Shown: positions 7,506 through 54,950 of the stretch, in pieces
Layout: each line of letters begins with the position of its first letter
Numbering within the stretch: the stretch's first letter is position 1
From: Geosiphon pyriformis uo1
Taxonomy: Eukaryota > Fungi > Glomeromycota
Direction: 5' to 3'
Length of the DNA: 64,000 bases
NCBI GenBank assembly: GCA_016748015.1
Contig: JAAOMT010000168.1
Location: forward strand, 76,190-140,189
The notes under the pieces: model-generated
Seen by the model: the letters and a program-made list of their open reading frames with translations, nothing else
The model's database searches: none
Told to the model about the DNA's origin: nothing
Translations under genes and position numbers: made by a program

Positions 7506-7515
7506 AGCAGAAAAA

Positions 7516-13308: not shown

Positions 13309-13495
13309 TTTGGTACTCTCTGTAAGGTATAATCTAACAGAAAACTAATTATTTGTAATATTTGATGCTTTCTGTAAGATATAATTCAACAGAAAACCAG
13401 CATTAACAACAACCATACAGAAAAGTAACAGACCAAGAGAAAACAAAAAAAAATCACTTAGGATTTGTGAAATTTTTATTTTAGTATTATTTTTA

Positions 13496-13975: not shown

Positions 13976-14557
13976 CAATAAAACTTAATTTCCACAATAT
14001 TAATAAATCAGCAAAACTTATTTGATAGTTTTAAATCAAAATATTAGAATGTAGTCACAATTTACTTTCATGTTCATATATTTAAAGAAAAGCCAATCAG
14101 TAAGAACAAATGGAAATCAAAATCAGAACTTAATTTTAATTCAAACCTTACTAATAATAACAATGATTCAAACTCCACTAATAACAGCAATAATTTAAAC
14201 TCCACTAATAACAACAATAATTCAAACTTTGTTAATGACAACAACAATTTAAACTTTATCCACAACAATTTAAATTCTGTTTCAAATACTAAACAATATA
14301 TCACACTTCTAGATCTTATAATAAAACTGGAATTAACTTAATTCAACAATAATAATAAGGGCATTATGTTTGAACATATACATAATACAGATGCAAGATT
14401 TGAATTTAGATATTCTAAACAAACCACAATAGTTAAAAACTCCAATTATGTATAAAAATTAGATTTAAAAATAGCAATAGAAATTACAGCAACAATATTG
14501 ATACAAAAGAAAAATTTAGAAAATTTTACAGAAGCTCAATATTAAAGAAAAAAATAA

Positions 14558-15411
14558 TATTATTTATAGAATATAGAAATTATATATTAGTACATAAATT
14601 AGCCAATCAAAATAAACGTAGTAAAAGTGGAATTACAGAATTTCTTTTAGAAGAATTATAGGATTTCAGAATTATAGAATTTCTGTATAAAGAATTACAG
14701 AATTCTTGAAATTCCAAAATTTCTGGCTAAAAATTAAAGAATTCAAGAAATCTTATATAACATAAATTATGTATATATAACAGTAATATTAGAAGCTAAA
14801 AAATTAATCAATTAGACTTTCAAAGTTAATTAAACTTACAAATCATAATTATTAAATACTTTTCTCTTCAAGAGATAGTTGCTATCAACCAAAATGAAAT
14901 TATATCAATAAAATATCTCTTTAAATCTTCAAATCTATGTTATTATTTACTACTTAATCTATTGGCACAATATTTTTTGATTATGGCTATTGACAAAACA
15001 CTTATTTTTTATTTTTTATTTTATTTTTCTTTATTTATTTATTTTCTTTTATTTTTTTTATTTTTTTTTATTTTTGTTTGTTGATTTATTAATTAATTAA
15101 AAGATTAATGTGTGAAGTTATTGACATTAAAGAAACTGGTAAAAGACCCATAAAACAAAGATAAAATACTTATAATTAAGAATAATTTATCAGGAAGATT
15201 ACCAGCCACTATGCTAAAAAAAAATTTGACAGAATTGCAATTCTGGAAAGCTATGAATAAAACAATACCTAAATCTCTGTTTATTATACAAAAAACTTAA
15301 TCAAAACCTTTAGATTATAAAAATTTTCAGAAACCAACATTATTATATCAATTAAGCACCAAGTTACAAGTTTGTTATTTGTTTTTATATCTCAAATAAT
15401 CATCTGTAATA
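14558..15411 (+). repeat. 3' LTR, family A
   Basis: TATTATTTATAG (decayed TGTTACTCATAG) ... CATCTGTAATA (decayed CATCTGTAACA); homologous to 24948-25743 and 44867-45720. Confidence 0.88.
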
Positions 15412-18400
15412 CTAGTGCTAATGTAATAAACCCTTGTATTCTCCTAATAATGAATGTAAATTCTGTCTAATCTATTATAAAGATTGGGAACCTATTAGTC
15501 TAATACTCAAAGAAGAACTAAAAAAATACAAAAGTTCTTTGAAAATAAACCACCTGAGATCTAATCACTTGCAATAAAATATAAAAAACTTTTCTTTAAA
15601 GAAAAAAAAATAGACATTAAAAATCTGTTGGTTAGAAATAGCCCAGTTATTTAAAAAAAAAAGGATACCTCTAAATAAACTCATATATTATAATATATCA
15701 TTACTATCAAAAAAACTTACTCCATTTATTTGAAGCCTTATCAATCTAATTAATACAATAATGAGTTTATTAAAAAAGAGATAAACTGAATAAAAAATCT
15801 TGGATTTATACAAAAAACCAAAAGTAAATGGACTTTCTTAGTTATAGTAGTATCCAAAAAAGACAGAACTCTATACTTCTGTGTTGATTATTACCAATTA
15901 AATGCTATTATTATAAGAGACATATACTTACTTCCCAAAATTGATGTAATGCTAAACAAATTCAATAGTACTGCTTTTTTTTTAATCATTAACTTAACTG
16001 CTGAATTCTGGCAAGTAGAAATAGATCCAGAAAACAAAAAAATAACTGTCTTTATTACCAAATATGGCATTTATGAATTTACAGTTATGCTTTTTGGTTT
16101 TACTAATACTTTTTTTATTTTTTAATGTCTAATAAACAAAGTGTTTAAATTAATAAAAGAAAACTTTGTTTTAATTTATTTAAATGATATAATAATATAC
16201 TCAAAAACCTGAAATAAACTTCTTAAACACTTGCAAAAGATTTTTGATCTTCTTAAAAATACTGGTTTTAAGATAAACCTAATTAAATTTTTTTTTGAAT
16301 AACAATTTTCCCAGTTTTTTGGTTATCTTATTACAAAAGATAGAATCTTTCCTGATCCAGCTAAAGTTGAAAAAGTCTAAAACATTAAACAATCAATAAA
16401 TATTCCTAAACTATGCTTTTTCTTTGGTTTGGCTTTTACTATTACAAATTTATTAAAAATTTCTCTAAAATTGTCTTTCCTTTCAATTACTATTCAGAAA
16501 AAATATTAATTATTACTGGAGCATTTATCAACAAAAAGCTTTTGAAACTCTAAAAAAAAAACTTATTACTATACTAATATATCTGGTTATAGATTTGGTA
16601 CTGTTTTTTCACAAAAAAATAAAAATAACAGAGAACATATTATAGCATATGTCAGTAGAACGCTCACATCAACAGAAAAAAACTATTCAATTACTAAACA
16701 AAAATGCTTAGCAGTAGTTTGGGCTACTAGTTATTAGAATTAATATCTTTTTGGTGTAAAATTCTTAGTGATAACAGATTATTAAGCTTTGGTTTAGCTA
16801 TATAACAAAAAAAAACTAGAACATAAATAGATAACTTGCTAAATACTTTACTTAAATAAATTCAACTATAATATACAATACTGCAAAGGAGCAAATTATC
16901 AAAACACCAATGTTTTTTCCAGACTTACTATCCAGTGATAGTACAATCTTTCAACCAAATCATTTTAATTATTAGTATTTTTTTCTTTAACAAACATGAT
17001 AATAGACTTAGATAACTACTCTGCCTTAATAAAATTTTTAGATAAAAGACAATATCTATTAGACTACACTTAATAACAAAAAGAACATTTATACAAACAA
17101 TCAAATTTTTATTTGATTTGCCAAAACCAATTATATAAAAAAAATTAAAAAATTCTAACCACTTTTAGAGAATCATAAGATTTGAGGAAAAAGAAATTGT
17201 AATATACAACATACATACTAATCTATTAGCTAAACACTTTGAAAAAACTAAAACAATTCAAAAAACTTTAACTTGCTATTATTGGCCTACTTTGGAAAAA
17301 GACATTGCTGAGTACATCAAAACTTGTAATACTTGCCAAAGAAAAGGAAAACCTAATTGTCAAAAAGATATTCATCTAATCTCTGTTGGTCAATTATTTA
17401 ACAAAATTAACATAAATGTTATTGGACTCTTAATAATAACTTTTGATGACAATAAATATATTATTACAGCTACTGATTATCTTACAAAGTGAGTAGAAGC
17501 AAGAGTCACTCCAGATCAAACAGCAATCTTAATAGCTAATTTCATTTATAAAGATATTATTTATTACTATAGCTATTTCAAAAAACTTTTATCTGATAGA
17601 AAAAGAGCTTCTCTCAGTATACTAGTTAAAAAACTTTGTAGAAAAATGAGAATATGTTATAAACTTTCTTCCTTTTATCACTCTCAGACAAATAACCTAG
17701 TGAAATATTTCAATAGAACACTATGTAAAATCTTAACCAAAACCAGTAAAAAAACAAACTTATAAGACAAAGTACTGTCTTTAGCTTTGTTTGTTTATAA
17801 AACTGTGAATCATGACATAACAAGTTATGAACTTTTTTATCTATTCTATAAATACATAAAAACACTACTAATAGAAACTGATATTGAAACAATACTTTTT
17901 AAAGAAATCACAATAGGAAATTACAAAGATATTTTGCAAAGAAGATTTGGTATTATTCTTAACTCCTTGGTAGAAACACAAATAATTGTCTTTGAAAAAA
18001 TAAACCAGTTCTAAGAAAAGCTTAAAAAAAAAAAAATCTATAAAACACTTTTTTTAAGTATTAGTAACTTAGTTTTAAAATATTGCTTAGACAGAAACAA
18101 TATCTATGGTAATAAATTCTCTAACCAGTAAAAAAAACACTTTTTAGTTAACAATGTTTTGAACAATAGTTCTTATATCTTACAAAATTAATATAAAACA
18201 ATCTTTAATAATTATCTTGTTCATGATACATAACTCAAAAAATATTACTAACGATCTGATTAGTTATCTGTTGTAGTAATACTAACCCAAATGATTAGCA
18301 AAAATTAGATATAAATAAATACACCATTTTCAAAACAGAAATATTTTCAATTAACATGAACAATCATTTTTTGGATTAAAATATTCAAAATGGCTTCTAT

Positions 18401-19645
18401 ACTCTTCATAAGTATTGGATCAAAAACTATCCAAATGCTATTCTGACTATTAGAAAACAAACCACTATAATTAATAACAATAGAACACATACTGTTATTA
18501 AACCAAAGAAAACTACTATCAGAAAAAAAAAATTAATAGCAAAATAGATAAATATCTGTTAAAAAATATAATAGCAGCTATACTTTTACTTTCTAGCACA
18601 ATTGAAAAAACAATCCAAGAAATTTTCCCCATAGACAAAAATTTATCATATAGAAGGCAATTAAAACTCTATGGTTGCCTTGGAGAAATTATAGAGAATA
18701 TGAAACTCATGAAGAAAACAACTTCAGAGATACAGGCAGAAATTTTGGGCATTATACAGTTAGATGTTCTAAGAGTTTTGGATACAAAATTCATTTTACT
18801 TCAAGTATTATATATTCTATCCACAAAAAACTTTAACAAACTAGTTAGCTTTAAGTTAGATAAAACTCTTTAAATAAATTATATCATAAATAGCTTGATT
18901 TGGCTAGAGCTCAATCTCTTTGGAGAGGATAATATTATAGTTGAAACCTATATTTCTTATTAATTATCACATGTATTAACTACTGATATTATATAATTAG
19001 CCACTTTATTTTTAGATAGTAATTACTGATCTAATCAATAACCTAACTGTTGACCTAATTATTGATCTAATCATTGACTTAATTATTGACCTAGTTGTTG
19101 ATCTGATCATTGACTACTTTTGATAGTTATATAAGTAATGAATCTTTTAGCTATAAAAAAACATATAAGAACCAAAGAAAAAAATAAAATAAAATAACAA
19201 CTTTATTTTAATCCTTCTCTTATTGCTAATTTCTCTTTTCTTATTTTTAAGTATTTAAATATCTTGGGATAAAAATTACTTATTGACATTTATCTACCTT
19301 TTTCCTAACTTATATAATTATAGCATTTGAAGATTATTAAATAAAATGTGACTAAAGAGTACATTTGATATCTGATATTGAATTCTAAAAGTGCTGACAT
19401 GAGGCATAGAATTATATCAGTGTGTAATTATTTGTTGACAGTACAAACTATCTTTCTATCTTCAGATTCTTTGATTATCTTTTGAAAAATATAGTAACTG
19501 AGATATTTTATAAAACTGATCTTACACATTGAATCCATACTCATTCAATTTGCTTTTTGAAGTTAAATTTTCTTTGATTTTTTTTATTACTCTACAATTC
19601 TGTTTTCTCTAACTATCTGTTAGCTTGTTACTCTAACTCATAACA
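15412..19645 (+). mobile_element. Ty3/Gypsy family B, 5'-truncated: RT, RNase H, integrase, ORF3, PPT, 3' LTR
   Basis: RT (FCVDY ~15878, AEFWQVEI ~16005), RNase H (EHIIAYVSRTLTSTEKNYS ~16632), integrase (IKTCNTCQR, ITATDYLTK), PPT TGGAGAGGATAA 18921-18932. Confidence 0.9.
18933..19645 (+). repeat. 3' LTR, family B
   Basis: Starts TATTATAG (decayed TGTTA) right after PPT, ends CATAACA where family-A RNase H sequence resumes; no second copy in window. Confidence 0.72.
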
Positions 19646-22600
19646 ATAGCAAGTTATTTATTATTATTACTAATATATTAAGTCAAGTATTAAAAACACT
19701 ACTATTACAAAAAAAATCAAATAAACAAGAACATCTAATAATATATGTTAGCCAAAGTTTGAGTTTAACTAAAAAAAACTATAACATTCTAGTATTGAAA
19801 TACTTAGCTATTTATTAGACTGTTATCAAATAAAAGAAATACTAAATTTAAAAGTTTAATGTATATACTGATTACAAAAAATTGACATCAATTTAAAAGC
19901 AAAAATTTGGAGATAAATATCATATAAAATAAAAAATAAAATTAATACTATTTAATTATACAATACACTATAAAAAAGGAAAAAAAAATAAAAATACTGA
20001 CAGTTTGTTATAAATAAAACAAATCTAAAAACATTTTAATCCAAAAATATAACAAAAAATAAATACTCAAAAATATTAACAACTTCAATATTATATAAAT
20101 ACTTAATAATTTAAAGAAAAATTATCTCAAAAAAAACAAAACAACATAAAACAACAATCAAAATATTTTATTACTTATCAAAATATATTATATCAGAAAA
20201 ACAGAAAAGATACAAACCAGTTATTTAAAGTAATTATAGAACCAAAAAAAAAAACAATACTGTTTAACATACACTTAAATTTAACTATAAAACATTTTTA
20301 TAAAAAAGTAATTATAGAAAAAACCAGAAAAAAATACTATTAGTCATTAATATATCCAGATATCATTCAATATGTTCAAAATTGTAATGTTTTTCAAAGA
20401 AGAGAAAAAACAAAACACAGCAACTACTAAAACTAATCAAAGTAGAACAACTATTTGATCAGATTAGAATTGACTTAATAAGACTATTAATAATAACCAG
20501 CAAAGACAACTAATACATAGCAATAGCCATAAAGTATTTTATAAAATAGTCAAAAGCTAAAGCCATTCAAAGAGCAAATGCAAAATTTATAGCCGAATTT
20601 GTATACCAGAATTTGATTTGTCGATCTAAATATCCAAAAAAATTGTTATCAAACCAAAAAACTTATTTTGTAAACAAAACATTAACAGAATTAAGTCAAA
20701 AATTTAGAATTAAAAAACTATTATTATTTTTATATTATCTACAAACAAATAATTTAATTAAAAAATTCAATAAAACATTATGTAAAGCAATAATCAAGAT
20801 CAGTCAAAAAAACCAGAACAAATGAAATTTGTTTATACTATTAGTATTATTTGCTTATTGAACAATAAAACAAGATACTATATAAGCAATATCATTTGAA
20901 CTAATTTATAATAGAACAACAATATTACTAATTAAAATAAATATCAATACATATTCAACAAAACCAATAACAGAAGCCAATTTTTAAGAAAAATTGCTAA
21001 GAAAAACATATAACTTAATAGAAACTTTAAAAAACAACAGATAAAAAGCAGTTAATAACATACAAAAGTTACAAAAAAAACAACATAATAATCAGTAACT
21101 AAATAAACTGGTCGAATTCAAAATTAGAAACAAAGTACTTTTATATTATTCTAAAGTAAAAAAACAATAGAGTAGAAAGTTTGGTTCCAAATAAAATAAT
21201 CTATTTTACATTGAAAAATTCTAGAAAATAGAACTTATAAATTAAGATAAAACAATAAAATTTTAACCAAAACAGCACATAATAATTAACTAAAATTAGA
21301 TTACAATATAGTATTATTATTTACTAGTAATATTCTATAATTAAAAGTACAGAGAATACTAATTAAATCAGATAAAATTTTACAAGATTTAGAACCAATT
21401 ATAATCATCTAAAAAACATGAAAAATAGATCAAGATAAAAATATATAAAGACACAATATATGTAATAAAAGCAATAGTAAAAGATAAAAATCTTAGATCA
21501 TATTTATACAATAACACAAAAATTGTTTTAAGTCATAAATTAACAACAATTGAACATAAAAATTATTATAAATTATTAAACAATTTGTTATAAAAACACA
21601 AAAAAAAAATTACTTTATATTAGTAATTATAAAGCCAAACAAAGCATTAATTAGATAAAATTATAGAAAAAATAAAAAACACTTTTAGAAAAATACCAAT
21701 AAAAGAACTAACTAAAAAAGACTAAAAGTTATAAATAAAACAACTTTTAATAGCATATTATTATTATAAATTAAAACAAAAGCTAAATATTCAGAAGTTA
21801 TATACTAATAAATCCAAAAAAATGTTTAATTAAGAAATAGTACAACAGATTAAAGACTTTATTAAAAAAAAGACAAGTTTTATATTATATATTAAAACAA
21901 TTTATTAATTATATATCATATTTTAAAATTCTTCAAAAATACTATTATATTTAAAAATAAAAATAACCAACTTTCAATTCGAAAACATAAAAACCAGAAT
22001 TGAACAAACAGTATTAGAAAAAGAAGTAATAGACTTAATTCAAAATAAAAATTTCAACAGATCTTAATATTGAAGAAAAAGATAATATTACTTATAAAAA
22101 AAGAGCACAAAAAAAAATAAAGAAAAGCAAATTATAAAATAGACCAATAGAAAAATAGTACTCAACAAATAAACATATTTTTAAAAATGTGTATATTCTC
22201 AAAAAATAAACACATTTTCAGAAAATCACAGCACATTTCCAAAAAATAGTACAAATAAAAAGTAAAAATGTATAAGATCTTATATAACACAAATTATGTA
22301 TATATTGTAAGAGTATTAAAAGCAAAAAAGACAGAACAGTAGTTAATAACAAGTAATTATTTAATATTTCTCTTTTTAAAAGATAGTTTGCTATAATTTG
22401 AAGTAAAATTATATTTATATCTCAATAAAATACTCAATTATTATTTAATTTATGTTATTATTACTTAATTAAAAATTTTTATTCTTTTTATATTATTAAC
22501 AATCAATGTTAATAGAATATAATACTTAATCATACTAGAACAATAGTTTTTGATTATAGCTATTGACAAGATATTAATTTTTTATTTTTATTTTTTATTT

Positions 22601-29532: not shown

Positions 29533-31349
29533 TGTTGATAAAACAGGCAATTAAAGCAGCCAACTTTTTTTTAGACTGCAATTGCTTTAATGATTTTAAA
29601 TCATTGTTATCAATAGAATTTTAGCTATTAACTAGCATAAAATTACTCTTATAATTCCTATTATTAATTAGCATATATTAATACTATTTCAAATTATTAC
29701 TTATTAATTAATTAAATTATCAAATAGCACTATTTAATTATTAACCTAATTTGTATTATAGAAATTAAGATGATTAAATTACACAATACTCTGAACTACT
29801 TAACATTTAAAAATTCATTGAAATTTGTAAAAATTTGTTAAAATCATAAATAATTAACCAAAATAGTTAATAGTTTAACAAAATAACTTGTAGTTTGCCA
29901 AAATATATCTTTAGTTTATTGAAATCATAGTAAAGAAGAAAATTCAAGTTTATAAACAAGTACTATAACAAGTTGTATAAAAAAAAAGCTTTTTTTTTCA
30001 AAAAATGTATCTTATTTTCTATTAAATATTTTAATTAGAATCAATAATTCTTTATATATTTTTACAAATTAAAAATAAAAATCAAATATTCAAAAATCCA
30101 AATCTTTAATTATTATATTTAGAACTGCTAAAACCCAATTAACAATTTGAAATTGATTAGCTACCAATTTCAATAAATTTGTTAATAACTCTAGATCTGA
30201 ATACAAAACGTTTTTTTTGACAAAATTCTATTTTTTTTACATTTTTTATTATAATTATTAGAATAGTCTACAAATGAGATTTCTGTAAAAGAGTTAACTT
30301 TCACAGCAAAGTAATTATACAGTTTTGGTAAGTTTCCAGATAAGTAATTTTTGGGAAAGAGTTGATGTTTATTACAACATAACTATACAAAGTAATTGGC
30401 ATGAAATTGGCCATTTCACTTTTACTAAAGGTTTTTGGTCTCATTTCTTGAAGGTTATTAATGCCTAATTGCTGTAATTTCACGTTTTTTTGAAGTACTT
30501 GAACCTTCAATAACTGAATTTATCTTTTTAAATTATCTTTTATAATTTGAACTGCTGGACTTATAAGTAGAATGGCCAATTTTATGTTAGTTACTTTATG
30601 TAGTTACATTGTTATAAATATCAACTCTTTTCCAGAAATTGCTCATCTAGAAGTTCACTAAATGTGTAGTTACTTTGCTGTAAAAATCAACTTTTTTACA
30701 GAAATCTTGTCTGTAGACAACTCTAATGATTATGATAAAAAAAATTAAAAAATTAAAAAAAATTAAAAAAAATTAAAATTTTGTCAAGGGAAATGTTTTC
30801 TATCTAGGCCTGAAGTTATTAACAAATTTATTAAAATTGGTAAATAACAATTTCAAGTATAATAATTTAAAAATTTAAGATTTTTGAATATTTGATTTTT
30901 ATTTAATTTTGTAAAAGTATTTAAGAAATAATTGATTCTAATTAAAATATTTACGATAAAATAAATACATTTTCTTGAAAAAAGAAGCTCTTTTTTATAC
31001 AACTTGTTATAGTACTAGTCTTTGAACTTGCATTTTTTTTTTTACTATAATTTCAGCAAACTAAAGATACATTTCAGTGAATTACAAATTATTTCTACAA
31101 ATTATTGATTATTTCAGCCAATTTCTATCTATTTCGGCGAATTTTTGAATATTAAATAGTTTAAGATATTGTGTAATTTGATCATCTTAATTTTTATAGT
31201 ACAAATCGAATTGTTAATTGAATAATAATATTTAATAATTTGATTAACTAATAAGTGTTAATTGAAATAATAATAATATATACTAATTAATGCTAAGAAT
31301 TAAAAGAGTAATTCCATGTTAATTAATAGTTAAAATTCTACTGGTAACA
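29533..31349 (-). repeat. Putative 3' LTR of family C (~1.8 kb)
   Basis: Begins TGTTACC after the PPT; minus strand ends TTATCAACA at 29533, exactly where the family-A element is interrupted; second LTR not in window. Confidence 0.65.
29605..31349. repeat. Long imperfect inverted repeat, arms ~29605-30424 and ~30562-31349, spacer ~137 bp
   Basis: TGTTATCAATAGAATTTTAGCTATTAA / TTAATAGTTAAAATTCTACTGGTAACA at the ends; AGTACTATAACAAGTTGTATAAAAAA / TTTTTTATACAACTTGTTATAGTACT mid-arm; AAATTGGCCATT / AATGGCCAATTT at the inner ends. Confidence 0.95.
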
Positions 31350-32979
31350 TAATTTTCTCTTCAAGATTGAGTTCTATCAAAATCTAAGCACTATCTGTAA
31401 TATTGAGATAGTGGTCCAAAATAATCGTGGTAATTTGGTCTGAAAATTGTTGAAATTTCAGTTCTGTAAGTTTGCCAATGTATTGTATTTTTATTAGTTA
31501 GAGTATTAAATTTTATAAGATGTTTTCACAAGTATTAAATAAGTTATAAAGTCTAAGTGCTGCTCTGAGTTTATAGTAAATGTTTGTTGGTTCAGCTGCT
31601 GTCTTGAATCATTGTAAATTTGTTTTTGTATTGCTTCAGAAGTGAGATTTGTTGTTGTAAGTTTTAATTTTCATTAATAAAGTGTTCTTTCAATATAAAA
31701 ATAATTATATATAAGAGTATAGTTATTGTTCTGTTTATTAAAAATTAATAAAAGTTTTTGTTGGATTGTGTCATTTGGTAAAATGTCAATAGGAATAATA
31801 AGAAAGTTTTTTTTTAAAGTTTGCTTCAAAAGTTCTGGTAGTTGACTTTCAGAATAACTTCTTGTGTTTGTTTTATAAAAATGATATTTCTGGGAATTAT
31901 TTACTACTGAAACTGCAGTTTCTTTTTGGGTGTAATTAATTTTGTTTTCATTGATCATTATAGATAAGTCAGGAAGTGTTTTTAAAGCTAACATTAAATT
32001 TTGTGATATTTATTAAATGTTTCAGGGAATAAGCATTATAAAATTTGAATAAATTTTGAAATTTGAAAAAGAAAAAAATTATTTTTGGTATAGAAGTTTT
32101 TATATATTTTTTTGTTTGGGTATTTTTTGGTAATTATTTTGCTATTTTTGTTTTTAATGTTTCTGTATTTTAAAAGAAATAACTAATAAAATTAAATATT
32201 CAGATTTGTTATTATTCTATTATAACTATTGGTTCTAAATTTCGAGAAATATTTTTAGGATTAATTAGAAAAGAATATATACCAATTTGTGGAATTAATA
32301 ATTCAATTTTGTTTCTGGAATAATAGTGTTATAGTCGATTTTTTTGTGCAACTTTGGCTAGGATTTTGTTATCAAGTTTTAACTTGTATGATCTATTGCT
32401 TAAGATTTTATGAATATAAAATAGTCTATCTTATTTATGTTCAAATTTTTTACCCTATTGTTTTTTAGTCTTAGTTCTGTGTAAGAAAACTTTGTTTTCA
32501 ACTTTAAATTTATTAATAACTAATAGCAGTTTGTTATTATGCTATTCTTTTTGTTAAGCTTGAGAGTGTTTAATATAAGTTACTGCAATTTATTATTTTT
32601 TTTCCAATATGCTAAAAAGAGTGTAAACTCTTTGTTAAAAAGTTTCTTGGAAGTTTTTTTTTGTAATGAATTGTACTAGATATGTATCTACTGTAAAATT
32701 AATTAGTAATATTGCTATTCTTCTATTGGTAAGATCAAATGATATGTGTTTTATAGTATCTTGTTTTAGTGTTTTATATGCTAATAATACTGATAAAATA
32801 AAGATATTCTATTCTTGTTCAAAATTGGTTGAAACTTTAACTAGTAATTCACATAGTGTTTAGTTGAAACATTCTACAAGTTCATTTATTTGGAAGTAAT
32901 AAGATAATAATAAAAGTTTTTTAATATTGAATTGTTCACAAATTTTTTGCATTAAGTTATTTACAAAGTGTGTTTTTAT

Positions 32980-33340: not shown

Positions 33341-33344
33341 AACA

Positions 33345-34890: not shown

Positions 34891-35134
34891 TTATTAAAAT
34901 CATTTTTTTCTAATTTATAATGTTTTAATTATGATTTTATTATTTTTATTGTTTATAAAAAAGTTTATATTAAAATATTAATATGTATTTTATTTTAAAA
35001 TATATTAAAAAAATATTAATGATAAAATATAATAAAATTAATTATTTATTATATCAAAGTTTTTTAAAATATATAAAAACAATATTTTAAATAAATTACT
35101 AAAAAATATTTTTAAAAAATTAACAAAAAATATA

Positions 35135-35562
35135 ATTTTTTTTTAATTTTATTGAGTAAGGATTAATTATTATCTAAAAATTAGAAACAAACCAAGTATT
35201 CTAATATTAAATATAGTTCACATATTTTCTATATATAATTAGTTACTTAAACCAGTTTAAACTATATTATATTGATATTTTAAAAAAAAATTTATCCAAA
35301 AAAACATTTTTTAAACAATTTTAAACAATATAACACTATTACCAAACAATTTAATTAGCTATTTAGCTGTTTTTAAGACATTAGTCTTTATAATAACAGA
35401 TTTATGTTCCTAAAATAACATTAGATTAAAAAACATATTATTATCAACAGTAGACAAACTTATATGAAAGCCAGATATATTAATATCTTCATAGCCAAAC
35501 TCAGTTGTTAAAACAACTACTTTCTATTCTAATTTATTAATAGTCTTATTAAAGATACTCAT
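35135..35562 (-). mobile_element. ORF1-only LINE derivative, 3' segment (split from 45721-47580 by the Gypsy insertion)
   Basis: ORF1 C-terminus, stop at 35267-35269, LINE-type 3' UTR (..CCTTACTCAATAAA) and A-tail on the minus strand. Confidence 0.8.
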
Positions 35563-36423
35563 TGTTACTTATAGAAATATAGAAAATATATTAGCATGAT
35601 TATTAAACAATCAGAAATAGGTATAGTAAATGTGGAATTCCAGGATTCTTCTCAGAAATTACAGGATTTCAGGAATTTCAGGATTCCCCGACGAGAAATC
35701 ACAGAATTCCAGAATTCCAGGATTCCTCTCAAAGAAATTGCAGGATTTCTGTCATAAAGAATCGAGGAATTGAGGAATCTCAATTATGTATATATAGCAG
35801 CAAGATTAGAAGCTAAAAAGACAGACCTCTTAGTTTTAAATTTAATTTAAGCAACTCTCTAAATTACAATCATCTAATAAATAACTATTTGTTATCTCAA
35901 ACCCATTTCCACTATCAACACTTTATGTTAATAGTAATTGATACTTAACCACACTAAAACAATAGCTCTTGATTATGGCTATTAATGAAATACTAACTTG
36001 CAAATTGCCTTGGCTTATTTCTTTTCTTTCTTTATTTTATTTTCTTTTCTTTATTTTCTTGCTTTGATTTTATTGTTGTTTACTAACTCTATTGAGGATT
36101 AGCGCACAGAGCACTAATGTCAGGATAAACATGACTGGTAAAAGACCCAGAAATAAGAGTAAAACACTCGATTGAGAATAGCTTACCAGGAGAAATACTG
36201 GCCATCAAGCTGAAAAAAAAATTGATGAAACTGCAGTTTTGGGAAGCTATGAATAAAACTATCACCATTGAATCTCTGTCCATTATACAAAAAACTCAAC
36301 CAAACCCTTCAAATACAAAACCTTTAGATACCAAACCTTCAGATCATCGACAATAAGAATAACCTTAAGCACCAAGTTACAGGTTTGTATTTAATTCAAC
36401 CTCAGAAATTGTTACTTGTAACA
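35563..36423 (+). repeat. 5' LTR
   Basis: TGTTACTTATAG...CTTGTAACA; direct repeat of 44867-45720. Confidence 0.96.
35633..35800 (+). promoter_or_regulatory. LTR U3 array of GGA(A)TT(C/T)CA motifs followed by TATA-like TATATATAG
   Basis: About 10 short motif copies; TATGTATATATAG conserved in all family-A LTRs; function inferred from position. Confidence 0.55.
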
Positions 36424-39400: not shown

Positions 39401-42400
39401 TGAAACCACTATTAATATCTGGAATAATGACGATGAAAGTAAAGCAATGCCAACCAGCTGAAAAGAAAAAGGGAAAGGAAAGGAGAAAGAAGAAGACTTA
39501 TCTGGAAAAGCTAACGAAGCCATAGAAAAAATAACCAGTGACTAGGAAAGAGAATATTTACATAAACCAGTAAAGAAGTCACCTTACATTCTCTTAAAAT
39601 GTCAGGACTGTAAGAAAAAACTCTCTTCTATGGAAGCATGGATCATGCCAGACGAAGACTACTGGACACGAACCCACTACTACTGCAAACCATGCCATAA
39701 AGAATGCTATAGTTATCCAAAATGACAAGGCAAGTGAGACAACAAACCATGTCTCGCTTGTGGCGAACAGTTACTCGATGAAGAAATGTGGAACGACATT
39801 CCTGGTTGAGGAGGAACATGCGACGCTTCATGCTAATACATGATCTTTATCAGCGATTGAATAAGTTACAGCATGCCAATAACAGCTGCTTGGCACCAAG
39901 CAATATCTCGCTTAGAAGGTTACTCACATGATGAAGACAAAATCTGGTGAATGGCCAATGCCAAAGTAGAGGACGCTTCGCCCAGTGAGATTCTAGAGAT
40001 CAAGAACAACTTTCCAGAACCAACAAACATTGTTTTGGTTCTCAACCCAGATGCCTTTCTCAACTTAGAAAACAGTCCAGAAGAATTCCATGAACACTAT
40101 CAGAACTTAGCACTCATCAGAAAAAAGCAGAAACAAAGATTAAAAGAAATAAACACTTGACTATGTGACTATTGTTTGATTCCATGTGACTTCTAATATT
40201 GTAATAAGTGTGATCTTATTTACAATCCACCACCACGCATGATCTACAAGATTTCCAAAAAGGAAGAACCAATCAGCAGCTGCACATCAGAATCAGAATT
40301 GATTTTCAATTCCAATTTAAACTCTGACAAGAATGACAACGAAAACACCGGTTTCAGCTCTATTCAAAATGACATTAACAATGACAACAATTCCAACTCA
40401 GATCCAAACTTTGACCCAAAATATGAACAATATATTGCACTGCCAGACCTCTCCAAAGAACAGAAGTTGAAATGATATAGTGATAATAATGAAGATATCA
40501 TGCCAGAACATGCACACGATACTGATGCTGGATTTGATCTGAGATATCCAGGAAAAGATGCCATTAAATTGGAGCCAAACATGTGAGTATGCATTGATCT
40601 GAGAATAGCTCTAGAGATCCCAGCAACAACCATGGTTCTGTTAGCATCTAGAAGTAGTTTAGCAAAAAAAGTGATTAATATTAGAGGGTAAATAGTGGAT
40701 GCAGGATATATAGAAAATATTAGTGCCATGTTACAAAATGACTCAGAAAAAGCTTACACTATTGAGCCAAATGAAAAGATAGCACAGGCCATATTCCTGC
40801 CACTAGTCAAAGTAGCTAGCTTAGTGTCAGTGGGAACAAGAGAGAAATTAGGGATAACAGCAAGAGGGATACAAGAATTTAGATCAACAGGTAGAATAGA
40901 TATACCAGTTAATATGACAGAGGAAGAAATTGTTGGCCAAGGAAAAATTATCTCAACCGGTCAAACTATTTCCATTTCACTATATAGCCAGTACATGCTA
41001 GCAATAAAAAGGAAGGAAAAAGAACAGAATCAGATTTTTGAAGCAGAACCAACTCTTTGCAAATCAGGAGAGATTGGACTCATCAATCTCCATATACCAG
41101 CCAAAGATTACAGCCACATCAAAATTTTTATCTACAACAACACAGGAAATGTCATAGTGATACCAGCCAGAACCACTATGGGATACTTAAACACTGAAAT
41201 AGAAGATCAACCACCAAACTCCATTCCAAACTTTCCACAGCTTTGTGGATATGTCGACATCATATCACAAACAATCTATGAACAAGACAAATGTTATTTG
41301 CTCCAACCAGAACAATTAGAACAAATGAACATGGGAAATCTAGACCTATTACAACGTATACAGCTCAAGATGTTACTCAACAATTACAATAATATCTTTG
41401 TCAGCAAAAACAAATTTGGCAGAACTGACATCATCCAACATCAAATCAAGACTGGAGATGCAATGCCAATCAAACAGCAAGCATACAGAGTACCACCAGC
41501 CAGCCATGAAATTATTCATCAAGAAATCAACTGAATGCTTGACAATGAGTTAATTCAGCCATCAATGAGCCCATGGTTGTCACCAGTAGTACTCGTCTGT
41601 AAGAAGAATGGAAAGATCCGATTTTGTGTAGACTACAGGAAACTAAATAGTGTAACTCATGGAGACAGTTATCCAACTCTATAGATACAAGAACTATTCG
41701 ATGCTTTTGGTGGAAACAAATGGTTCTTAATGTTAGACTTAAATAATGGTTACTAACAAGTAACCATGGATCCAACCAACAAAGAAAAGATGGCATTTAC
41801 CACCAGAGAAGAGAATTTTGAATTTAAAGTAATGCCATTTGGCTTAACCAATGCACCAGCCACTTTCCAAAGACTAATAGAAATTGTTTATATGGGTTTA
41901 TTGTGGAAATCAGTAGTTGTATACTTGGATGACACTAATGTATTTTCAAAAACATTTGATGATCATCTTCATCATCTTCAACAAGTGTTCGAAAGACTAA
42001 GAAAAGCAGGACTAAAGTTAAATACAACAAAGTGTTTCTTTAACAAGACAGAACTAAAATTCTTGGAACACATAGTCAGCAAAGACAGCATCAAAACAGA
42101 TCCAGAGAAAATAGAGATAGTAAAGAACTTTCTAGTGCTGACAAATATGACAGAACTGAAATTATTCTTGGGATTTGCCAGCTATTATTGATGTTTTATC
42201 AAGAACTTTTCCAAGATAACACAGCCACTCAACCAACTGCAAACCAAGAATACAAAATATGAATAGACAGAAAGTCAACAAGAAGCTTTTGATATTCTGA
42301 GAAGAAAGCTCATTCAAGCTCCAGTACTGATCTATCCAGATCACAGCAAACCATTCATCATTACTACTGATGCATCTGGCCAAGCATTGGGAGCAGTATT

Positions 42401-42725
42401 ATCTTAGAGAGGACCAGATAGCAGGGAACATCCAGTAGCATATGCCAACAGAGATTTAACACCAGCCGAAAAGAATTATGAAACACTGGAACAAGAACAC
42501 TTAGCAATATACTGGGCAGTCATGAAATAGAAAAAATACTTGAGCCAAAAGTTTGAAGTATACACAGATCACAAAGGATTAACATCACTTCAAAAACAAA
42601 AATTTGGAGATGGAAGACAGTTAAGATGGAAAATGGCACTCATACCATATAATTATACTATACATTATAAAAAGGGAAAAGACAATGGAAATACTAATGG
42701 TTTGTCACAAATGAGACAAATCTAG
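36486..42725 (+). pseudogene. gag-protease-dUTPase-RT-RNase H polyprotein, one reading frame, internal stops
   Basis: ORF-track pieces 36486, 37449, 37887, 38487, 38931, 39201, 39951, 40239, 40695, 41766 and 42540 are all in the same frame; capsid (VWLNNVEKAIAANGW), CCHC CHNCGKQEHIRADC 38196-38237, LILDSAS, FCVDYRKLN, YLDD, TDASG, YTDH. Confidence 0.93.
40500..40895 (+). pseudogene. dUTPase domain within the Gypsy polyprotein
   Basis: All five trimeric dUTPase motifs: DAGFDL, ASRSSLA, IVDAGY, KIAQAIF, RGIQEFRSTG. Confidence 0.92.
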
Positions 42726-42786
42726 GAACATTTCAACCCAAAATATAACAAAACCAGAACAATACCAACAAAAAATATAACAAAAG

Positions 42787-44169
42787 ATGAACATACAAAA
42801 ATATCAATAACTGCAACATTATATAAACACTTAACAGTTCAAGAAGAATTTATCTCAAACAGAATGAAAGAGTATCAAACAACAATCAAAATATTTTATC
42901 ACTTACCAAAATATACTTTATCAAAAAAATAGAAGAGAGCTAGAACAACCAACCAGAGTAATTACAGAGCCAAAAAAAGAGACAATATTATTTAACATGC
43001 ACTCAAATCCAACAACAGGACACTTTCACAAAGAAGCAACCATGGAAAGAACCAAAAAAAAATACTATTGGCCATCAATGTATCCAGATATCATCCAATA
43101 TGTTCAAAATTGTGATGCTTGTCAGTGAAGAGGAGGTACAAAACCCAGTGAACCATTAAGACCAATCAAAGTGGGACAACTATTTAACCATATTGAAATT
43201 GATTTAGTTGGACCATTAATAATTACCAGAGGAAGAAACAGATACATAGCAGTAGCCATGGACTATCTCACTAAATGGCCAGAGACAAAAGCAATTCAAA
43301 GAGCGGATGCAGAATCCATTGCCAAATTCATTCATCAAGATTTAATTTGTCGACACGGATGTCCAAAGGAATTATTATCAGACCAAGAAACTCATTTTGT
43401 AAACAAAACATTAACAGAATTGAGCTAAAGATTCGGAATTAAGAGATCACTATCATTATCATACCATCCACAAACCAACAGATTAGTTGAAAGATTTAAC
43501 AGAACATTATGTGAAACAATAGCTAAGCTCAGTTAAGAAAACCAAAATGATTGGGACGTGTTAATATCAGCAGTACTATTTGCTTATCGAACAATGAAGC
43601 AAGACACTACACAAGCAATACTATTTGAATTAATATACAGTAGAACAGCAATATTACCAGTGGAGATAGAGGTCAACACATATCCAACTGAACCAATAAC
43701 AGAAAAGAATTTCTAAGAAACATTATTAAAAAGAACATATAACTTAATGGAAATATTGGAAAACAAATGAAAAAAAGCAGCTGATAACATACAAAAGTCA
43801 CAAGAGAAACAGAAAAAAAGACATAATAATCAACTATCAAACAAACCAGTTGAATTCAAGATTGGAGACAAAGTACTCTTACATCATACCAAAGCGGAAA
43901 AACAATAGAGTGGAAAATTTGACTCCAAATAGAATGGACCATTTCACATAGAAAAAATTCTAGGGAATAGAGCTTACAAATTAAGACTGGACAACAAAAT
44001 CTTAACCAAAGCAGCACATAGAGATCGACTGAAACCATACCACAACACCATACTACCATCCACCAGTAATATTCCACAATTAGGAGTACAGAGAATACTA
44101 GTCCAATCAGATCAAATTCCACGAGATCTGGAACCAATTATTATTATTAACAACAACACATCAAATTGA
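42787..44169 (+). pseudogene. Integrase (HHCC, DDE core, GPF motif), separate ORF
   Basis: ATG 42787; HSNPTTGHF, CDACQ, IDLVGPL, SDQETHF, LVERFNRTL, GPFHI; ends LEPIIIINNNTSN*; no chromodomain visible. Confidence 0.92.
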
Positions 44170-44193: not shown

Positions 44194-44853
44194 ATGGTAA
44201 ATATGACAGGAAATATCAGAAAAATAGAAATTACAGACAACATTCACTCACTAGTACAACAACTTTTTTAATTGATCCAACACCAGGAAATAGAGATTAT
44301 AATCAATTAACAAACCATTCGATATCAAGATACTAGAAAGACATTGCAATCTAGAACACAGAAGAAAACTGAAAATACTGTGGACAAAATCATTGTGAAA
44401 GTAAAATTAGCAATAAGAGAGTTGACAAAAGAGTCACTATATCAAGAATTGACTAAAAAAACTTGGAATTAGTAGATACAACAATTTTCATGAAACTATT
44501 GTTATTTTTACTTGGGACAACATGTAAATATCCAGAATCTATATATAGATAAAACAAAGTGATTATTTGACAAAAAAATACTACAACAATTAGAACATTT
44601 TGTGAGAAAGAATAACTTATCCACACAGACCTGAGCTATATACCAAATATACACAACATTTCAGGATAGACCAGAAATATTACTCAACAAAGCAATAAAT
44701 ATGGTTATCAGTAATCAATTGGGAAAGATTACCAATGCTCAATTTGAAGAATTACAGACCCAAATAACACAAGTAATTTTCAAAAACAAAATCCAGAAAA
44801 TACTTCAAGAGGGGGAATTATATGAGTTGGATTTCAACAGAGCTCAATATTAA
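44194..44853 (+). pseudogene. ORF3 of unknown function (~219 codons) between integrase and PPT
   Basis: ATG 44194 and TAA 44851-44853 in frame; internal stops consistent with single transitions; homologous segments in three other elements. Confidence 0.75.
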
Positions 44854-44866
44854 AAGGAGAGAATAA
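44852..44866 (+). promoter_or_regulatory. Polypurine tract
   Basis: AAAAGGAGAGAATAA immediately before the 3' LTR. Confidence 0.88.
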
Positions 44867-45720
44867 TGTTACTCATAGAAATATAGGAAATATATTAGCA
44901 TGATTATTAGTCAATCAAAAGTAGGCATAGTAAATGTGGAATTCCAGGATTCCTCTTAGGAATTGCAGGATTCCAGGAATTTCAGAATTCCCCAACAAAG
45001 AATCACAGGATTCCAAAATTTCAGAATTCCAGGAATTCCAGGATTCCTGTCATGAAGAATTGAGGAATTGAGGAATTTTAATTATGTATATATAGCAGCA
45101 GGATTAGAAGCTGAAAAGACAGACCTCTTAGTTTTAGATTTAATCTAAGCAACTCTCCAAATTACAATCATCTAATAAATAACTATTTGTTATCTCAAAC
45201 CCATTTCCACTATCAATACTTTATGTTGATAGTAATTGATACTTAACCACACTAGAACAATAGCTTTTGATCCAGCTATTGACGGAATACTAACTTGCAA
45301 ATTGTCTTGGCTTATTTCTTTTCTTTCTTTATTTTATTTTATTTTCTTTATTTTCTTGCTTTGATTTTATTGTTGTTTACTAACTCTATTGAGGATTAAT
45401 GTGCAGCACACTGACATCAGAATAAACGTGACTAGTAAAAGACCCAGAAATAAGAGTAAAACACTCAATTGAAGATAGCTTACCATGAGAAATACTAACC
45501 ATCAAGCTGAGAAAGAAATTGACAAAACTGTAGTTTCAGAAAGCTACGGATAAAACTATTACCATTGAATCTCTGTCCATTATACAAAGAACTCAACCAA
45601 ACCCTTCAGATACAAAATTTTTATATACCAAACCTTCAGATCATCAACAATAAGAATAGCTTTGAGCACCAAATTATGAGTTTGTATTTAATTCAACATC
45701 AGAAATTGTCATCTGTAACA
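44867..45720 (+). repeat. 3' LTR
   Basis: TGTTACTCATAG...TCTGTAACA. Confidence 0.96.
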
Positions 45721-47580
45721 TTATATGTACTAAAATCTTATTAATCTTAAGGCTAAAAACACTACTTAAAACCAAATACTTATTAATAAATTATTTAAGC
45801 ATAGTAATCATAAAACCAACTGACATAATAATAGACTCAATTAAAATAGAAAGCTTGACCAAATTAGATTCCAGAAAAGCCAACTGAAAAAAAACCACAA
45901 AATTATTAGTTATTATATTAGCAGAAAAAGCTAAACCAACCAAAGAACAAAAAGCTAAAAAGATACAAAAACAGTAGCTTTGATATAAAACTTGTTGTTA
46001 ACAACACAAGAAATAAAAGTCTTGAAAATTTTAAAAAAGAGAGATAAAAACACTTTATAATTTAAGTTAAATAATCTAAATTTTAATACTAAAAACAGCA
46101 CTAATTTTCAGAAATCTTTTATTATATATGATACTTTCTTAGTATACTAATTTTAATAACTATGATATCTAAATTAATTTGAGATTCAAACATAATTAAA
46201 GCAAACCAGAAACAATGGTTAAAATCAAGAAAATAAAAAATAAAACATATCTGATTATTAATCTGAAAAATCATATTATTAATTTCAAAAGCAGTATAAT
46301 TAAAGAAACAATTAATCAACTTGGCCTTAAATCTATCATAAAATATAATAGTTTTATTTTAATTTATTAAGAAGAAGATTCTAACACTATTTTTACTTAC
46401 CAAAACTGACCAATAATTCAAAGTAAATACAATAGAGTTCAGTTTATTAAAATAAATAATCACATATTGTCAAATTCTAACAGATTTCAATATAATATAA
46501 ACAACCTTATTAAACATACTAAGAGCTATTATGATATTAGCAGTAAATACACCCAAAGATATATTATACAGTACAATAGTAACAGAAAGAGAACTACTCT
46601 TAAAAACCACCAAAAACTTGGTAATTTTAAGAGTAATTAAATAAACAAAGCTCATAAGCTCAACCAGAAAAGCAGCTTTTAAAGACTTCTAAAAAGCAAA
46701 CTTCATACAAAAAAGCTTTACATTGTTTTTTTACACCAACTTTACATCCAAAAATCCATGTACAAACTGAAAAACAGTCTTAATATAAGCTAATTTAATC
46801 TTAAAAGTAGTATTAAACACCAAAAAAAAAGTCTATTTACTTAGTAAATCTTTAACAACTAATAATAATTTCTTAAACACTATTAGTAGCAGCACCAAAA
46901 ACCAGCAGAAGAAATGATTTAGTTTTCATTTGGTTAATTTAGTTTTTAAAAACAGATGACTTTATAGAAAATAGTTGCTTTACTTTTATAATTGATAAAA
47001 ATCTGTTAAAAGACTTTATATTTAACAATACAGCTAATAATAAATCTTGATTTATTTTAAATAACATATTAGATAATACAATAGAAATTTTATCTAAGAT
47101 CTTATCTAAAACCACAAAAGAGTTTGGTGTAATAATAACAAAGACAAGTGACTGTTTCCATTTTTTTGAAACTTTGGTTTTTTTGATCATTATTTTTAAA
47201 GAAGCAGTACTAAAAGCACTAGGTGTAAAAACTATAATAAGAAAATTTAGCTTATTAATTAGTCTGTTATTAAAAACTTTTGGGTTTTTAGAAGGAGTAA
47301 AAGCAATTTTAGAACTATTTCAAATGTGTTTCTTTAAAAAAATTTTGACTAGTAAAAAATCAGTTAAAGATACAAAGATATTTTAGTGACTACTAAAAAC
47401 AGTTTTTTATTATTATTAACTAAAAAAAAAGCTTTTAAGATGTTTTACTTAGTTGTTTTTACAACAAAAAGAACTTTTTTAGTTAAAACTTTGTGAAATA
47501 TTAAAAAAAAGTATCAGTTACAGCTTTTTTACTCTTTGTTTTAATTGTGATTATAAAATTAAAAAGACAAAGAGATGTTT
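45721..47580 (-). mobile_element. ORF1-only LINE derivative, 5' segment
   Basis: Minus-strand ORFs 46939-47190, 46470-46655 and 46122-46319 resemble LINE ORF1 (e.g. TAFEINNMIFQINNQICFI vs TAYDLSGLLESYNEKTCFI); LINE-like 5' end CATCTCTTTGTCTTTTTAATT..TAATCACAAT; frame rejoins 35558 after removing the Gypsy. Confidence 0.8.
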
Positions 47581-48174: not shown

Positions 48175-50114
48175 ATGAACCTGATGGGCACTTCTGCTAA
48201 TGACTCTGGTTTAGTTTCAGCCAGTTTGGAAACCTGTCAAAGTGTGAAAAAAAAACATGTAGATATGATCTACTCTAAAGGTACATCCTATAAAAAGCCA
48301 AAAAAGTCTATTGTCAATGATATGGTTAACTCATCAGCTAAACTTTTGAGCATAGAAAATATTGGTTGCACTGGTGTCAAGCCAGTAGTGTCTTAGAAAA
48401 GTGAGGTTGGCAGTGTTACTAACAATGTAAGTAATCTCTCAGATGTTAAGAATATGGCAAACATAATGGCCAAAGAAATTAGTTATGTAAAATCAAATGA
48501 AGACAATAATATAGACAAGACTACATCAAGAAAAACTTGCACTTAGATGTACGTGCTGGGCAACTTACTAAAGCAACTTTTTTTTGAATGTATGAGTAAT
48601 GACAAAGTTGTGCTGAAGCTTCCTCTTTGTGTAAATAATAGGTCCAATCAGTTGCCACTGCTCGAATTATGTGTTCTGGGAATACAAAGTTTTAATTTGA
48701 CAAAATCTTTTGTGCTTGATATCAAGCTTTCTGTAGTACCAGACAAATCAGTTAGTGATAAATTAATTTCAATAAAAAAAATTTTTTATTGAGTGAATGG
48801 TTTTGAAAAAGTCTCAACTCTCTCAAAATTTTCAGAGATCATCAGATCTTCTTTTACATCTGAGTTAAGTCTGAATAAGGCTAAAAAATTGGCAATCTGT
48901 GAGAAAATTTTGGTAAACAATGATGTTAGAAAGCTGAGTATTTGTTCAAATCAGGAAGTGATTGTCAAAAAAATTCCAGTCAATCTTCTCAAATCAGCTA
49001 TAGAATCAGTTTTTTCTAAATTTGGTAAGGTAGTTTCAATCAAGATACAACTGATTGGTCTTTGGCAAAAGCTTTAGTAGAGTTTGAGTCATCTGAAGTT
49101 GCTAGCTTGGTTGCCAAATGGTCAGTTTTTATGGGAAAAGATTCTGTACATGTGGCTTTGACTGTGAATGATAAAGAATCATAGGTAATAAGGAATCAGC
49201 ATCGAGCTTTGCTCTACACTCTTCTTATTGGTATTACTGCTTATGATTTGTCAGGTTTGTTGGAATCATATAATGAGAAGACTTGTTTTATTGGTCACAA
49301 TTCAAGCTCATATGTTTGTAATAGATATGCAGTGATTTGTTTTGAGAATAAGACATCTAAATTGGCTGTTATTGGTTCTGTTCCAGTCTTTAAGAGTGTG
49401 AATTTGCATTGGGCTGGTCTTTTTTTGGCCTGTTGTGTCAAGTGTAAACAATTTGGTTATATCTTTAATGTGTGTTTGATTGGTGAGAATTCTGGAATTT
49501 GTGTTAAGTGGGTGGTAACTGATCAGAATTGGGTTTGTTTGACCAGTATTTATAAAAAGAAACAGGCTCTTGTTATCTGTCCAGTCTTTTTTGATAGTAA
49601 AACTTGGGCTCAAGTTGTTGGTGGTTTTTTATTTCATGTGGCTCTCTTACTTCTTTTTGGTGCTAGTCTGTTTTCTGGTCCCAAGACCTCTTCATTTGCC
49701 TCTGTTTTCTCTAGTGATTTTGACTTGTATGACCATTTGGCATCTTTGAAATGCTCTTTGGAGCTTCTGGCAGACCAGATTTCTGGTATTTTAAAAAAAA
49801 TGAGTTTCACAGAATTGGTACCCCTAGTGATCACTTTTAAAGTCTCTTTTCCAGTTATTCTTGTGTCTGTAGTCTCTAGTTTGAAGTCGGATATGGCTTT
49901 GAATGGTGCATTGGTGTTTTCTGCTCTTCCTCTTCCAGTTGTCAATGATACAGTTACTGATTTAAGTTTAAGTAATACTAAGGTTTTGACCACCAAAATT
50001 GGTGGTCTGAAATCCAAGATGGTAGCTTTGAAGGTGTCTGTTAAATCTGTTTTAAAGAAATGAGACCATTTGTGCTTGGGTTTGGATTCATTGGCTTTTT
50101 TTTCTTCTCAATAA
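48175..50114 (+). pseudogene. LINE ORF1 (gag-like, CCHC knuckle relic)
   Basis: ORF-track 48175-50063; IESVFSKFGKVVSIKI RRM-like segment; CVKCKQFGYIFNVC. Confidence 0.88.
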
Positions 50115-54794: not shown

Positions 54795-54950
54795 TGGTGT
54801 TCTGATTGGTTTGAGTGGCTAGTTACTTGTAGAAAATACATAATTCATGCCTAGTATATAATTATTTCTTTGATGTATAGCATTAGGCTGTGTTTGGGCC
54901 TTACTCGTTAAATGTTAATATAAAAAAAATAATAATAATAATATAAAAAA

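What the first reader, a model, noticed from the sequence alone, without database searches (positions are those of the whole stretch)
44194..44853. Unknown ORF3 in the env position, conserved across three Gypsy families and overlapping the PPT boundary
Seen: ~200-220-codon ORFs after IN at 44194-44853, ~21420-22073, ~18355-18932 and 31994-31361 (minus). They share a central aromatic motif (NYCYFYLGQ; YNYFYIE; LYGCLGE) and a C-terminus DFNRAQY* / NFNRS*Y* / DFDRTQS* / LARAQSLWRG* whose stop abuts or lies in the PPT. No signal peptide or transmembrane segment is visible, so it is not an env. Inference: lineage-specific accessory protein, for example an anti-silencing or nucleic-acid-binding factor; terminal conservation may partly reflect a cis signal (GAGCTCAAT) before the PPT, which the miniature element also keeps.
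Basis: partly seen in the sequence, partly recalled or inferred. Interest (0 to 1): 0.7.

Follow-up and report, generated by a model that had tools for sequence, protein, structure and literature searches.

The report
Fungal Gypsy accessory gene behind integrase
A large family of jumping genes, likely from the fungus Geosiphon, carries a real extra gene of no named family behind its integrase; it is broken in these copies, is not an envelope gene, and is predicted to make a small helical protein that likely binds the element's own DNA to keep it switched on.

Summary
ORF3 is a real gene of a Gypsy lineage but dead here: 44194-44853 holds 7 internal stops, all at deamination-type codons. An uninterrupted 209-aa relative is 82% identical (Geosiphon pyriformis), and a metagenome element (L001) keeps an open 230-codon copy between integrase and LTR. 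Copies A, B (21484-22073) and D (32036-31330, minus) are homologous; C (18355-18932) is not detectably so. A-B divergence is codon-structured (p=0.0006, LTR controls flat). At least seven subfamilies share a core at 17-43% identity. The integrase stop and the ORF3 ATG are family-wide, so it is a separate gene. The shared 'C-terminus' is a DNA signal before the PPT, read in two frames and kept by elements lacking ORF3. No membrane segment: not env. The core folds confidently (pLDDT 90.5, all-alpha) with no significant match; three ParB-family DNA-binding domains align weakly (Z 3.5-4.7), profile tests inconclusive. Best guess (0.4): a DNA-binding self-activator or anti-silencer. New variant of LTR-element accessory genes; interest 0.5.

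The parts
44194..44853 (+). ORF3, copy A: decayed 219-codon gene, 7 internal stops; own ATG 24 nt behind the integrase stop
44440..44787 (+). Conserved all-alpha core (about 120 aa); equivalent stretch of L001 folds at pLDDT 90.5; the helix with the family's conserved Asn and Arg positions maps to about 44614-44661
44839..44866 (+). Cis motif AGAGCTCAAT plus polypurine tract, overlapped by the last codons and stop of ORF3
42787..44169 (+). Integrase as its own ORF (zinc finger, rve core, SH3_Tf2-1), 10 stops in 460 codons; terminal TGA at 44167-44169 is family-wide
35563..36423 (+). 5' LTR of element A (88.6% identical to the 3' LTR)
44867..45720 (+). 3' LTR of element A
44938..45080 (+). Array of short near-palindromic repeats (AGAATTCC-like, 8 copies) upstream of a TATA-like run in the LTR; candidate binding sites, untested
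21484..22073 (+). ORF3, copy B (second family): decayed, frameshift near 21600-21640
31330..32036 (-). ORF3, copy D (third family): decayed, frameshift near 31610; reads through the PPT into the LTR
18355..18932 (+). Different 3' frame of element C: same position and same terminal cis motif, no detectable homology to ORF3
14530..14559 (+). Miniature element: keeps the cis motif and PPT joined to a dUTPase remnant, no ORF3 body detected

Best explanation
ORF3 is a separate, conserved accessory gene of a fungal Gypsy lineage, broken by stops in this window, whose soluble helical product likely binds DNA through a predicted ParB-like helix-turn-helix and would recognise the element's own LTR to activate it or shield it from silencing. 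Shown: position, own start and stop, homology across at least seven subfamilies, codon-structured divergence, lack of a membrane segment, and that the last codons merely overlap a cis signal and the PPT. Predicted: the all-alpha fold. Inferred and untested: DNA binding, the LTR repeat arrays as targets, the regulatory role, and translation by restart after the integrase stop (family A, 24-nt gap) or from a shorter RNA (L001, about 316-nt gap). Odds by step: real gene 0.95; nucleic-acid binding about 0.6; DNA-binding self-regulator 0.4.
For: Real gene: 97 of 181 candidates hit, all named G. pyriformis, best 82% and stop-free; at the 7 stop positions relatives carry Q, W or R (K in 8 of 32 at one site); frame-blind A-B alignment gives mismatch 0.44/0.23/0.41 by codon position, p=0.0006, integrase p=0.012, LTR controls p=0.87 and 0.77; open 230-codon copy in L001 behind integrase. 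Separate gene: among 1,696 contigs no change opens the TGA at the 15% listing threshold and the ATG is the majority form. Cis end: 77 and 23 of 243 stored proteins end in one or the other frame of the same DNA. Fold: core pLDDT 90.5, pTM 0.84; among the 50 rows shown of 48,161 chains, Spo0J/ParB 1vz0 (Z 4.7, rmsd 3.7, 85 aligned), KorB 1r71 (Z 3.6, rmsd 4.3, 88) and VirB 3vwb (Z 3.5, rmsd 3.7, 77) span most or all of the model. Six columns are invariant over 7 subfamily representatives, among them Asn64 and Arg74 flanking and within helix 65-79, whose first half varies between subfamilies. ORF3 changes faster than integrase (31% of 182 vs 53% of 430, A vs L001). LTRs of A, the miniature and L001 carry different short repeat arrays above all 25 shuffles. 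TEs of the related fungus Rhizophagus are CG-methylated and produce small RNAs (PMC8647823, passages).
Against: All fold scores are below the tool's noise level (Z under 8); the top row is Orc6 (Z 5.2) and most rows are unrelated helical proteins; Foldseek has no match at E<=0.001 in four runs over two models (58 is VIA-align, best Z 5.2). Profile-profile tests: ParB and KorB no better than shuffles (14 of 40, 18 of 40), DUF3102 marginal (1 of 40, 1 of 30, 1 of 30), DUF1016_N 2 of 40 but 7 and 16 of 30, all probabilities under 4%. The DUF1016_N Pfam row was 1 of 12 members at E 0.037. Charge is not uniformly basic: pI 5.4-9.9. Repeat arrays were not above shuffles in 4 of 7 LTRs, among them B and D, which carry ORF3, and LTR repeats are common for host factors (own knowledge). 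A-D ORF3 shows no codon periodicity in the DNA alignment (p=0.81). dN/dS (0.43/1.31 for A-B) is near saturation and one shifted-frame control was also below 1.
Confidence: 0.4

Rival explanations
1. ORF3 binds RNA: it packages, exports or translationally controls the element's multi-gene RNA, or blocks host small-RNA silencing.
For: The element needs some control of several separate ORFs. Atlas rows for P0163 include Closterovirus coat protein (0.93, 156 of 256 features) and a phage translation repressor (0.90, 123). Small RNAs target TEs in Rhizophagus (PMC8647823, passages).
Against: Those Atlas rows share under 170 features and the recognition value 2186 is below the tool's mark; no sequence or fold match to an RNA-binding protein.
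Confidence: 0.2
2. ORF3 is an integrase partner that steers or helps integration in trans, in place of a chromodomain.
For: It follows integrase directly in every context seen (A, B, D, L001; L002 with one frame between), and Pfam found no chromodomain at the integrase end. A DNA-binding fold would also suit a tether.
Against: Element C has a related integrase with an unrelated 3' frame; ORF3 diverges faster than integrase. Binding was not tested.
Confidence: 0.15
3. ORF3 is a protein-binding antagonist of a host factor (methyltransferase, chromatin or defence protein) with no nucleic-acid binding.
For: Fast divergence, mixed charge and a generic helical fold fit a protein-binding adaptor.
Against: No partner identified; a conserved Asn/Arg helix is more typical of nucleic-acid contact (inference).
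Confidence: 0.17
4. The frame is only the decayed tail of integrase, or non-coding DNA kept for the cis signal before the PPT.
For: In A it is in frame with integrase, 8 codons behind the stop; the terminal motif is a cis signal.
Against: The stop is family-wide; L001 has a spacer of about 316 nt and its own ATG; conservation covers 120-210 codons with codon periodicity.
Confidence: 0.04
5. ORF3 is an env-like membrane protein.
For: Position and sense orientation between pol and the 3' LTR.
Against: Best 19-residue hydropathy 0.27-1.29 in 8 of 8 proteins, 1-2 Cys, soluble helical model.
Confidence: 0.02

Closest known systems
[quoted passage not shown]
   Same: Position, orientation, presence in most copies of a family, unknown role
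   Different: Some of those are env-like with transmembrane domains; ORF3 is soluble, about 210-240 aa, fungal, and overlaps the PPT
Antisense accessory ORFs of Grande, RIRE2, Retand, PvRetro13, fungal Boty (same review)
   Same: Non-env accessory proteins, some nuclear, proposed regulators
   Different: Antisense with their own promoter; no sequence link to ORF3 was tested
Non-env ORF3 of bdelloid LTR retrotransposons (PMC5408684, abstract only)
   Same: Interchangeable ORF3 types, and dUTPase in several lineages; here too C carries a different 3' frame and A has dUTPase
   Different: Those ORF3s are GDSL esterase or DEDDy exonuclease; ORF3 here has no Pfam hit of note
VANC anti-silencing proteins of VANDAL transposons (PMC5735166, abstract and outline)
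   Same: Working model: fast-evolving TE protein with family-specific tandem-repeat targets
   Different: DNA transposon, plant; binding and demethylation were shown there and are untested here; no homology tested or claimed
ParB/KorB/VirB helix-turn-helix domains and DUF3102 / DUF1016_N
   Same: Similar helix order in a weak fold alignment; motif resemblance
   Different: Z 3.5-4.7 only, longer helices, no ParB N-terminal CTPase domain in a 210-240-aa protein, profile tests not significant

Membership tests
Ty3/Gypsy LTR retrotransposon (element A) | Paired LTRs around gag and RT-RNase H-integrase in that order, PPT before the 3' LTR | tested here: met
Ty3/Gypsy LTR retrotransposon (element A) | Integrase inside one Pol polyprotein | tested here: not met
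   Stop after RNase H and a new frame in A, B, C and L001; new Met seen in A, C and L001
Ty3/Gypsy LTR retrotransposon (element A) | RT phylogeny inside Metaviridae | not tested
   No tree built
Additional ORF (aORF) between pol and 3' LTR | Separate ORF with own start and stop, in sense, after integrase | tested here: met
Additional ORF (aORF) between pol and 3' LTR | Kept in most copies and under protein-level constraint | tested here: met
   97 annotated copies; contigs in all 30 bins across integrase, ORF3 and LTR; codon periodicity. The fraction of elements that carry it was not counted
Additional ORF (aORF) between pol and 3' LTR | Expressed as RNA and protein | not testable with these tools
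   No RNA run was available to lay
env / env-like | Transmembrane segment or signal peptide | tested here: not met
   Hydropathy scan of 8 proteins; no dedicated signal-peptide predictor was run
ParB/KorB-type helix-turn-helix | Fold match of the DNA-binding domain | tested here: inconclusive
   Z 4.7, 3.6, 3.5
ParB/KorB-type helix-turn-helix | Profile similarity to HTH_ParB, KorB, DUF3102, DUF1016_N | tested here: inconclusive
   the test is weak: DUF3102 against DUF1016_N or ParB also scored under 2%
ParB/KorB-type helix-turn-helix | Sequence-specific DNA binding | not testable with these tools
   Needs EMSA, SELEX or DAP-seq
VANC-like anti-silencing system | Family-specific tandem repeats in non-coding DNA | tested here: inconclusive
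   3 of 7 LTRs above all 25 shuffles
VANC-like anti-silencing system | Protein binds those repeats and lowers methylation in trans | not testable with these tools
   Experiment needed

The most novel reading that the evidence does not exclude
These fungal Gypsy elements are multi-gene retroelements (RT-RNase H, integrase and ORF3 each a separate frame) that captured a bacterial-type ParB helix-turn-helix as their own sequence-specific activator or anti-silencing protein, its recognition helix diverging together with repeat arrays in the LTR: a VANC-like system in an LTR retrotransposon, which could explain the LTR-element expansion in Geosiphon.
Probability: 0.2. Interest if true: 0.8.

Novelty: new variant of a known kind. 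Interest (0 to 1): 0.5.

Why it matters
Accessory genes of LTR elements are a stated open question (PMC7264820), and fungal examples are few in what I read. This one is small, soluble, foldable and has open natural copies (P0002, P0163, P0148), so it can be tested directly. LTR elements cover 41.2% of the G. pyriformis genome (PMC11952901, passage); a self-encoded activator or anti-silencer would help explain that. It also explains about a hundred 'hypothetical proteins' in that annotation as transposon genes.

Tried and rejected
No whole genome is held for this window, so no genome-wide count or proper dN/dS was possible. Pfam: no hit for P0001, only faint scattered rows for 12 and 58 members; PHROGs: scattered rows of unknown function, best E 0.0012; PDB by sequence: best E 0.98 and 4.4. 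Atlas: nothing for P0002; for P0163 the top row was an unnamed 98-member, mostly Mucoromycota cluster (0.94, 176 features), a lead that I could not align. Full-length model (pLDDT 72.4): no fold match; core model: none significant. Viral contigs: 0 of 409 candidate stretches. Homodimer prediction gave no verdict. No RNA holder listed. No named hit outside Geosiphon in three word-based searches; these need shared 5-mers, and my one profile search used a narrow early alignment, so range beyond Geosiphon and a few metagenome contigs is open; only 10 proteins were looked up by name. Rejected: C and the extra frame of L002 as ORF3 relatives; read-through of the integrase stop as the ancestral state. 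Literature: nine searches listed no paper on this gene; the Geosiphon genome papers themselves were not in the listings, and no supplements were read.

Full report
Setting. The finding lies in a complete but decayed Gypsy element, here called A: LTRs at 35563-36423 and 44867-45720, 88.6% identical, with gag, dUTPase, a protease-like piece, RT, RNase H and integrase ending in an SH3_Tf2-1 domain. All 97 hits (of 181 candidates) to the 3' frame are hypothetical proteins of Geosiphon pyriformis, the best 82% identical, so the host is likely that fungus or a close relative; no genome was held to confirm it. One DNA run lays 16,053 contigs on 1.4 kb around the frame, and 124 of 132 listed differences are transitions: a large family decaying by deamination. 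CpG is at 0.12 of expectation in the window.

Is the frame real? It is not open: 7 stops in 219 codons. But 18.8 would be expected, the other five frames hold 11-20, and in the 60 best hits these positions carry Q, Q, W, W, R/Q/K, Q/R/W and R/Q; P0002 is stop-free over 209 residues. A frame-blind DNA alignment of A with copy B gives mismatch rates 0.44, 0.23, 0.41 at the three codon positions (p=0.0006), like integrase (p=0.012) and unlike two LTR controls (p=0.87, 0.77); A against D is too distant to show it (p=0.81). Nei-Gojobori values are below 1 in 4 of 4 ORF3 pairs but near saturation, and a +1 control is also below 1, so I lean on the periodicity and on the open copies.

How wide is the family? 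A profile search of 1.84 billion representatives gave 108 hits. Of 10 proteins looked up, 8 are Geosiphon and 2 are unnamed metagenome proteins. Later searches gave 57 of 3,133 candidates (55 Geosiphon, 2 ENA) and 11 of 2,429 (8 and 3). Seven subfamily representatives share the core at 17-43% identity with six invariant columns. L002 has the integrase tail, an extra 137-codon frame, then ORF3. An unnamed 98-member, mostly Mucoromycota cluster is the nearest Atlas row; it is a lead only.

Which window copies belong? A, B and D do. C does not score above shuffles (120 and 89 of 500), though its frame has its own relative in the tail of P0158. So two different genes occupy the slot.

A separate gene. 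In A the frame continues integrase's frame 8 codons after a TGA. Among 1,696 contigs no listed change (15% threshold) opens that stop, the only one turns it into TAA, and the ATG at 44194 is the majority form, whereas the first internal stop reads as a sense codon in 87% of depth. With the spacer and ATG of L001 this makes ORF3 a gene of its own.

The end is a DNA signal. The same DNA before the PPT is read as FxGAQY-stop in 77 and as ELSLEEEIML, running into the LTR, in 23 of 243 stored proteins. It is kept in C, whose frame is unrelated, and in the miniature element, which joins it to a dUTPase remnant. What the signal does (likely plus-strand priming context) was not tested.

What the protein looks like. 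No membrane segment in 8 of 8 proteins. The full-length model has pLDDT 72.4 with a poor N-terminal 50 residues; the 121-residue core reaches 90.5 and is all helical. No search gave a significant match. The idea of a ParB-type helix-turn-helix came from a faint DUF1016_N row (1 of 12 members, E 0.037) and from my recall of that family's pattern; I had it before the core fold search but wrote it down only after. In that search three ParB-family domains (Spo0J Z 4.7, KorB 3.6, VirB 3.5) cover most or all of the model, but all are under the noise level and Orc6 ranks first. I then built alignments of HTH_ParB (25 sequences), KorB (9), DUF3102 (18) and DUF1016_N (59 of 81 loci; close enterobacterial relatives dropped) from fetched loci. 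Profile comparison was marginal for DUF3102, mixed for DUF1016_N and null for ParB and KorB; the test is weak, since DUF3102 hardly finds its presumed relatives either. Verdict: a lead, not a membership.

Mechanism. I commit, at 0.4, to a DNA-binding self-regulator. Reasons: the fold lead; conserved Asn and Arg on a helix whose first half differs between subfamilies; faster change than integrase (31% vs 53%); different short repeat arrays in the LTRs of A, the miniature and L001 (3 of 7 LTRs above all 25 shuffles); and methylation plus small-RNA silencing of TEs in Rhizophagus (PMC8647823, passages). Against: weak scores, mixed charge, no significant arrays in B and D. RNA binding (0.2), a host-protein antagonist (0.17) and an integrase partner (0.15) remain open.

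What is known. Extra ORFs between pol and the 3' LTR are known in plants and in fungal Boty (PMC7264820, main text) and non-env ORF3s in bdelloids (PMC5408684, abstract). PMC3248453, PMC8647823 and PMC11952901 (passages by term search) did not mention such a gene in the passages shown. Nine literature searches listed no description of it; subscription papers and supplements were not seen and may bear on this. Earlier scan notes on this genome report the stand-alone integrase, which I had seen before looking; sequence and word look-ups found no note on ORF3.

Verdict. Real, conserved, unnamed accessory gene; observation partly right, interpretation partly supported; new variant of a known kind; interest 0.5, up to 0.8 if the DNA-binding anti-silencing model holds.

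Noticed in passing
window 42720-42790; about 20000-20070; about 16930-17000; L001 772-801: RNase H ends in a stop and integrase starts in a new frame in elements A, B, C and L001; a new Met is seen in A, C and L001 (24 nt behind the stop in L001, the same gap as integrase-to-ORF3 in A).
   Followed up: partly
L002 398-811: An extra open 137-codon frame lies between the integrase tail and ORF3; not similar to ORF3 (187 of 500 shuffles score as high).
   Followed up: partly
window 18355-18972: Element C has its own 3' frame (18502-18873 stop-free), matching only the tail of P0158 among 243 stored proteins: a second unknown gene in the same slot.
   Followed up: partly
window 38400-41530: Between gag and RT of element A: a protease-like stretch, a long Cys/Trp-rich insert, dUTPase, then a second protease-like hit (PF03539, E 3e-4).
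   Followed up: no
window 35559-35562 and 45721-45724: Flanks TCAT and TTAT of element A fit a decayed 4-bp target duplication.
   Followed up: no
window about 12630-15409: Miniature LTR element with gag and dUTPase remnants only, sharing LTR sequence with A.
   Followed up: partly
window 29605-31349 and 32951-35492: Long imperfect inverted repeats (70-79% complementary) flank copy D.
   Followed up: no
window 1-12600 and 48700-60000: Several 65-75% identical copies of another long coding repeat with positive GC skew; not identified.
   Followed up: no
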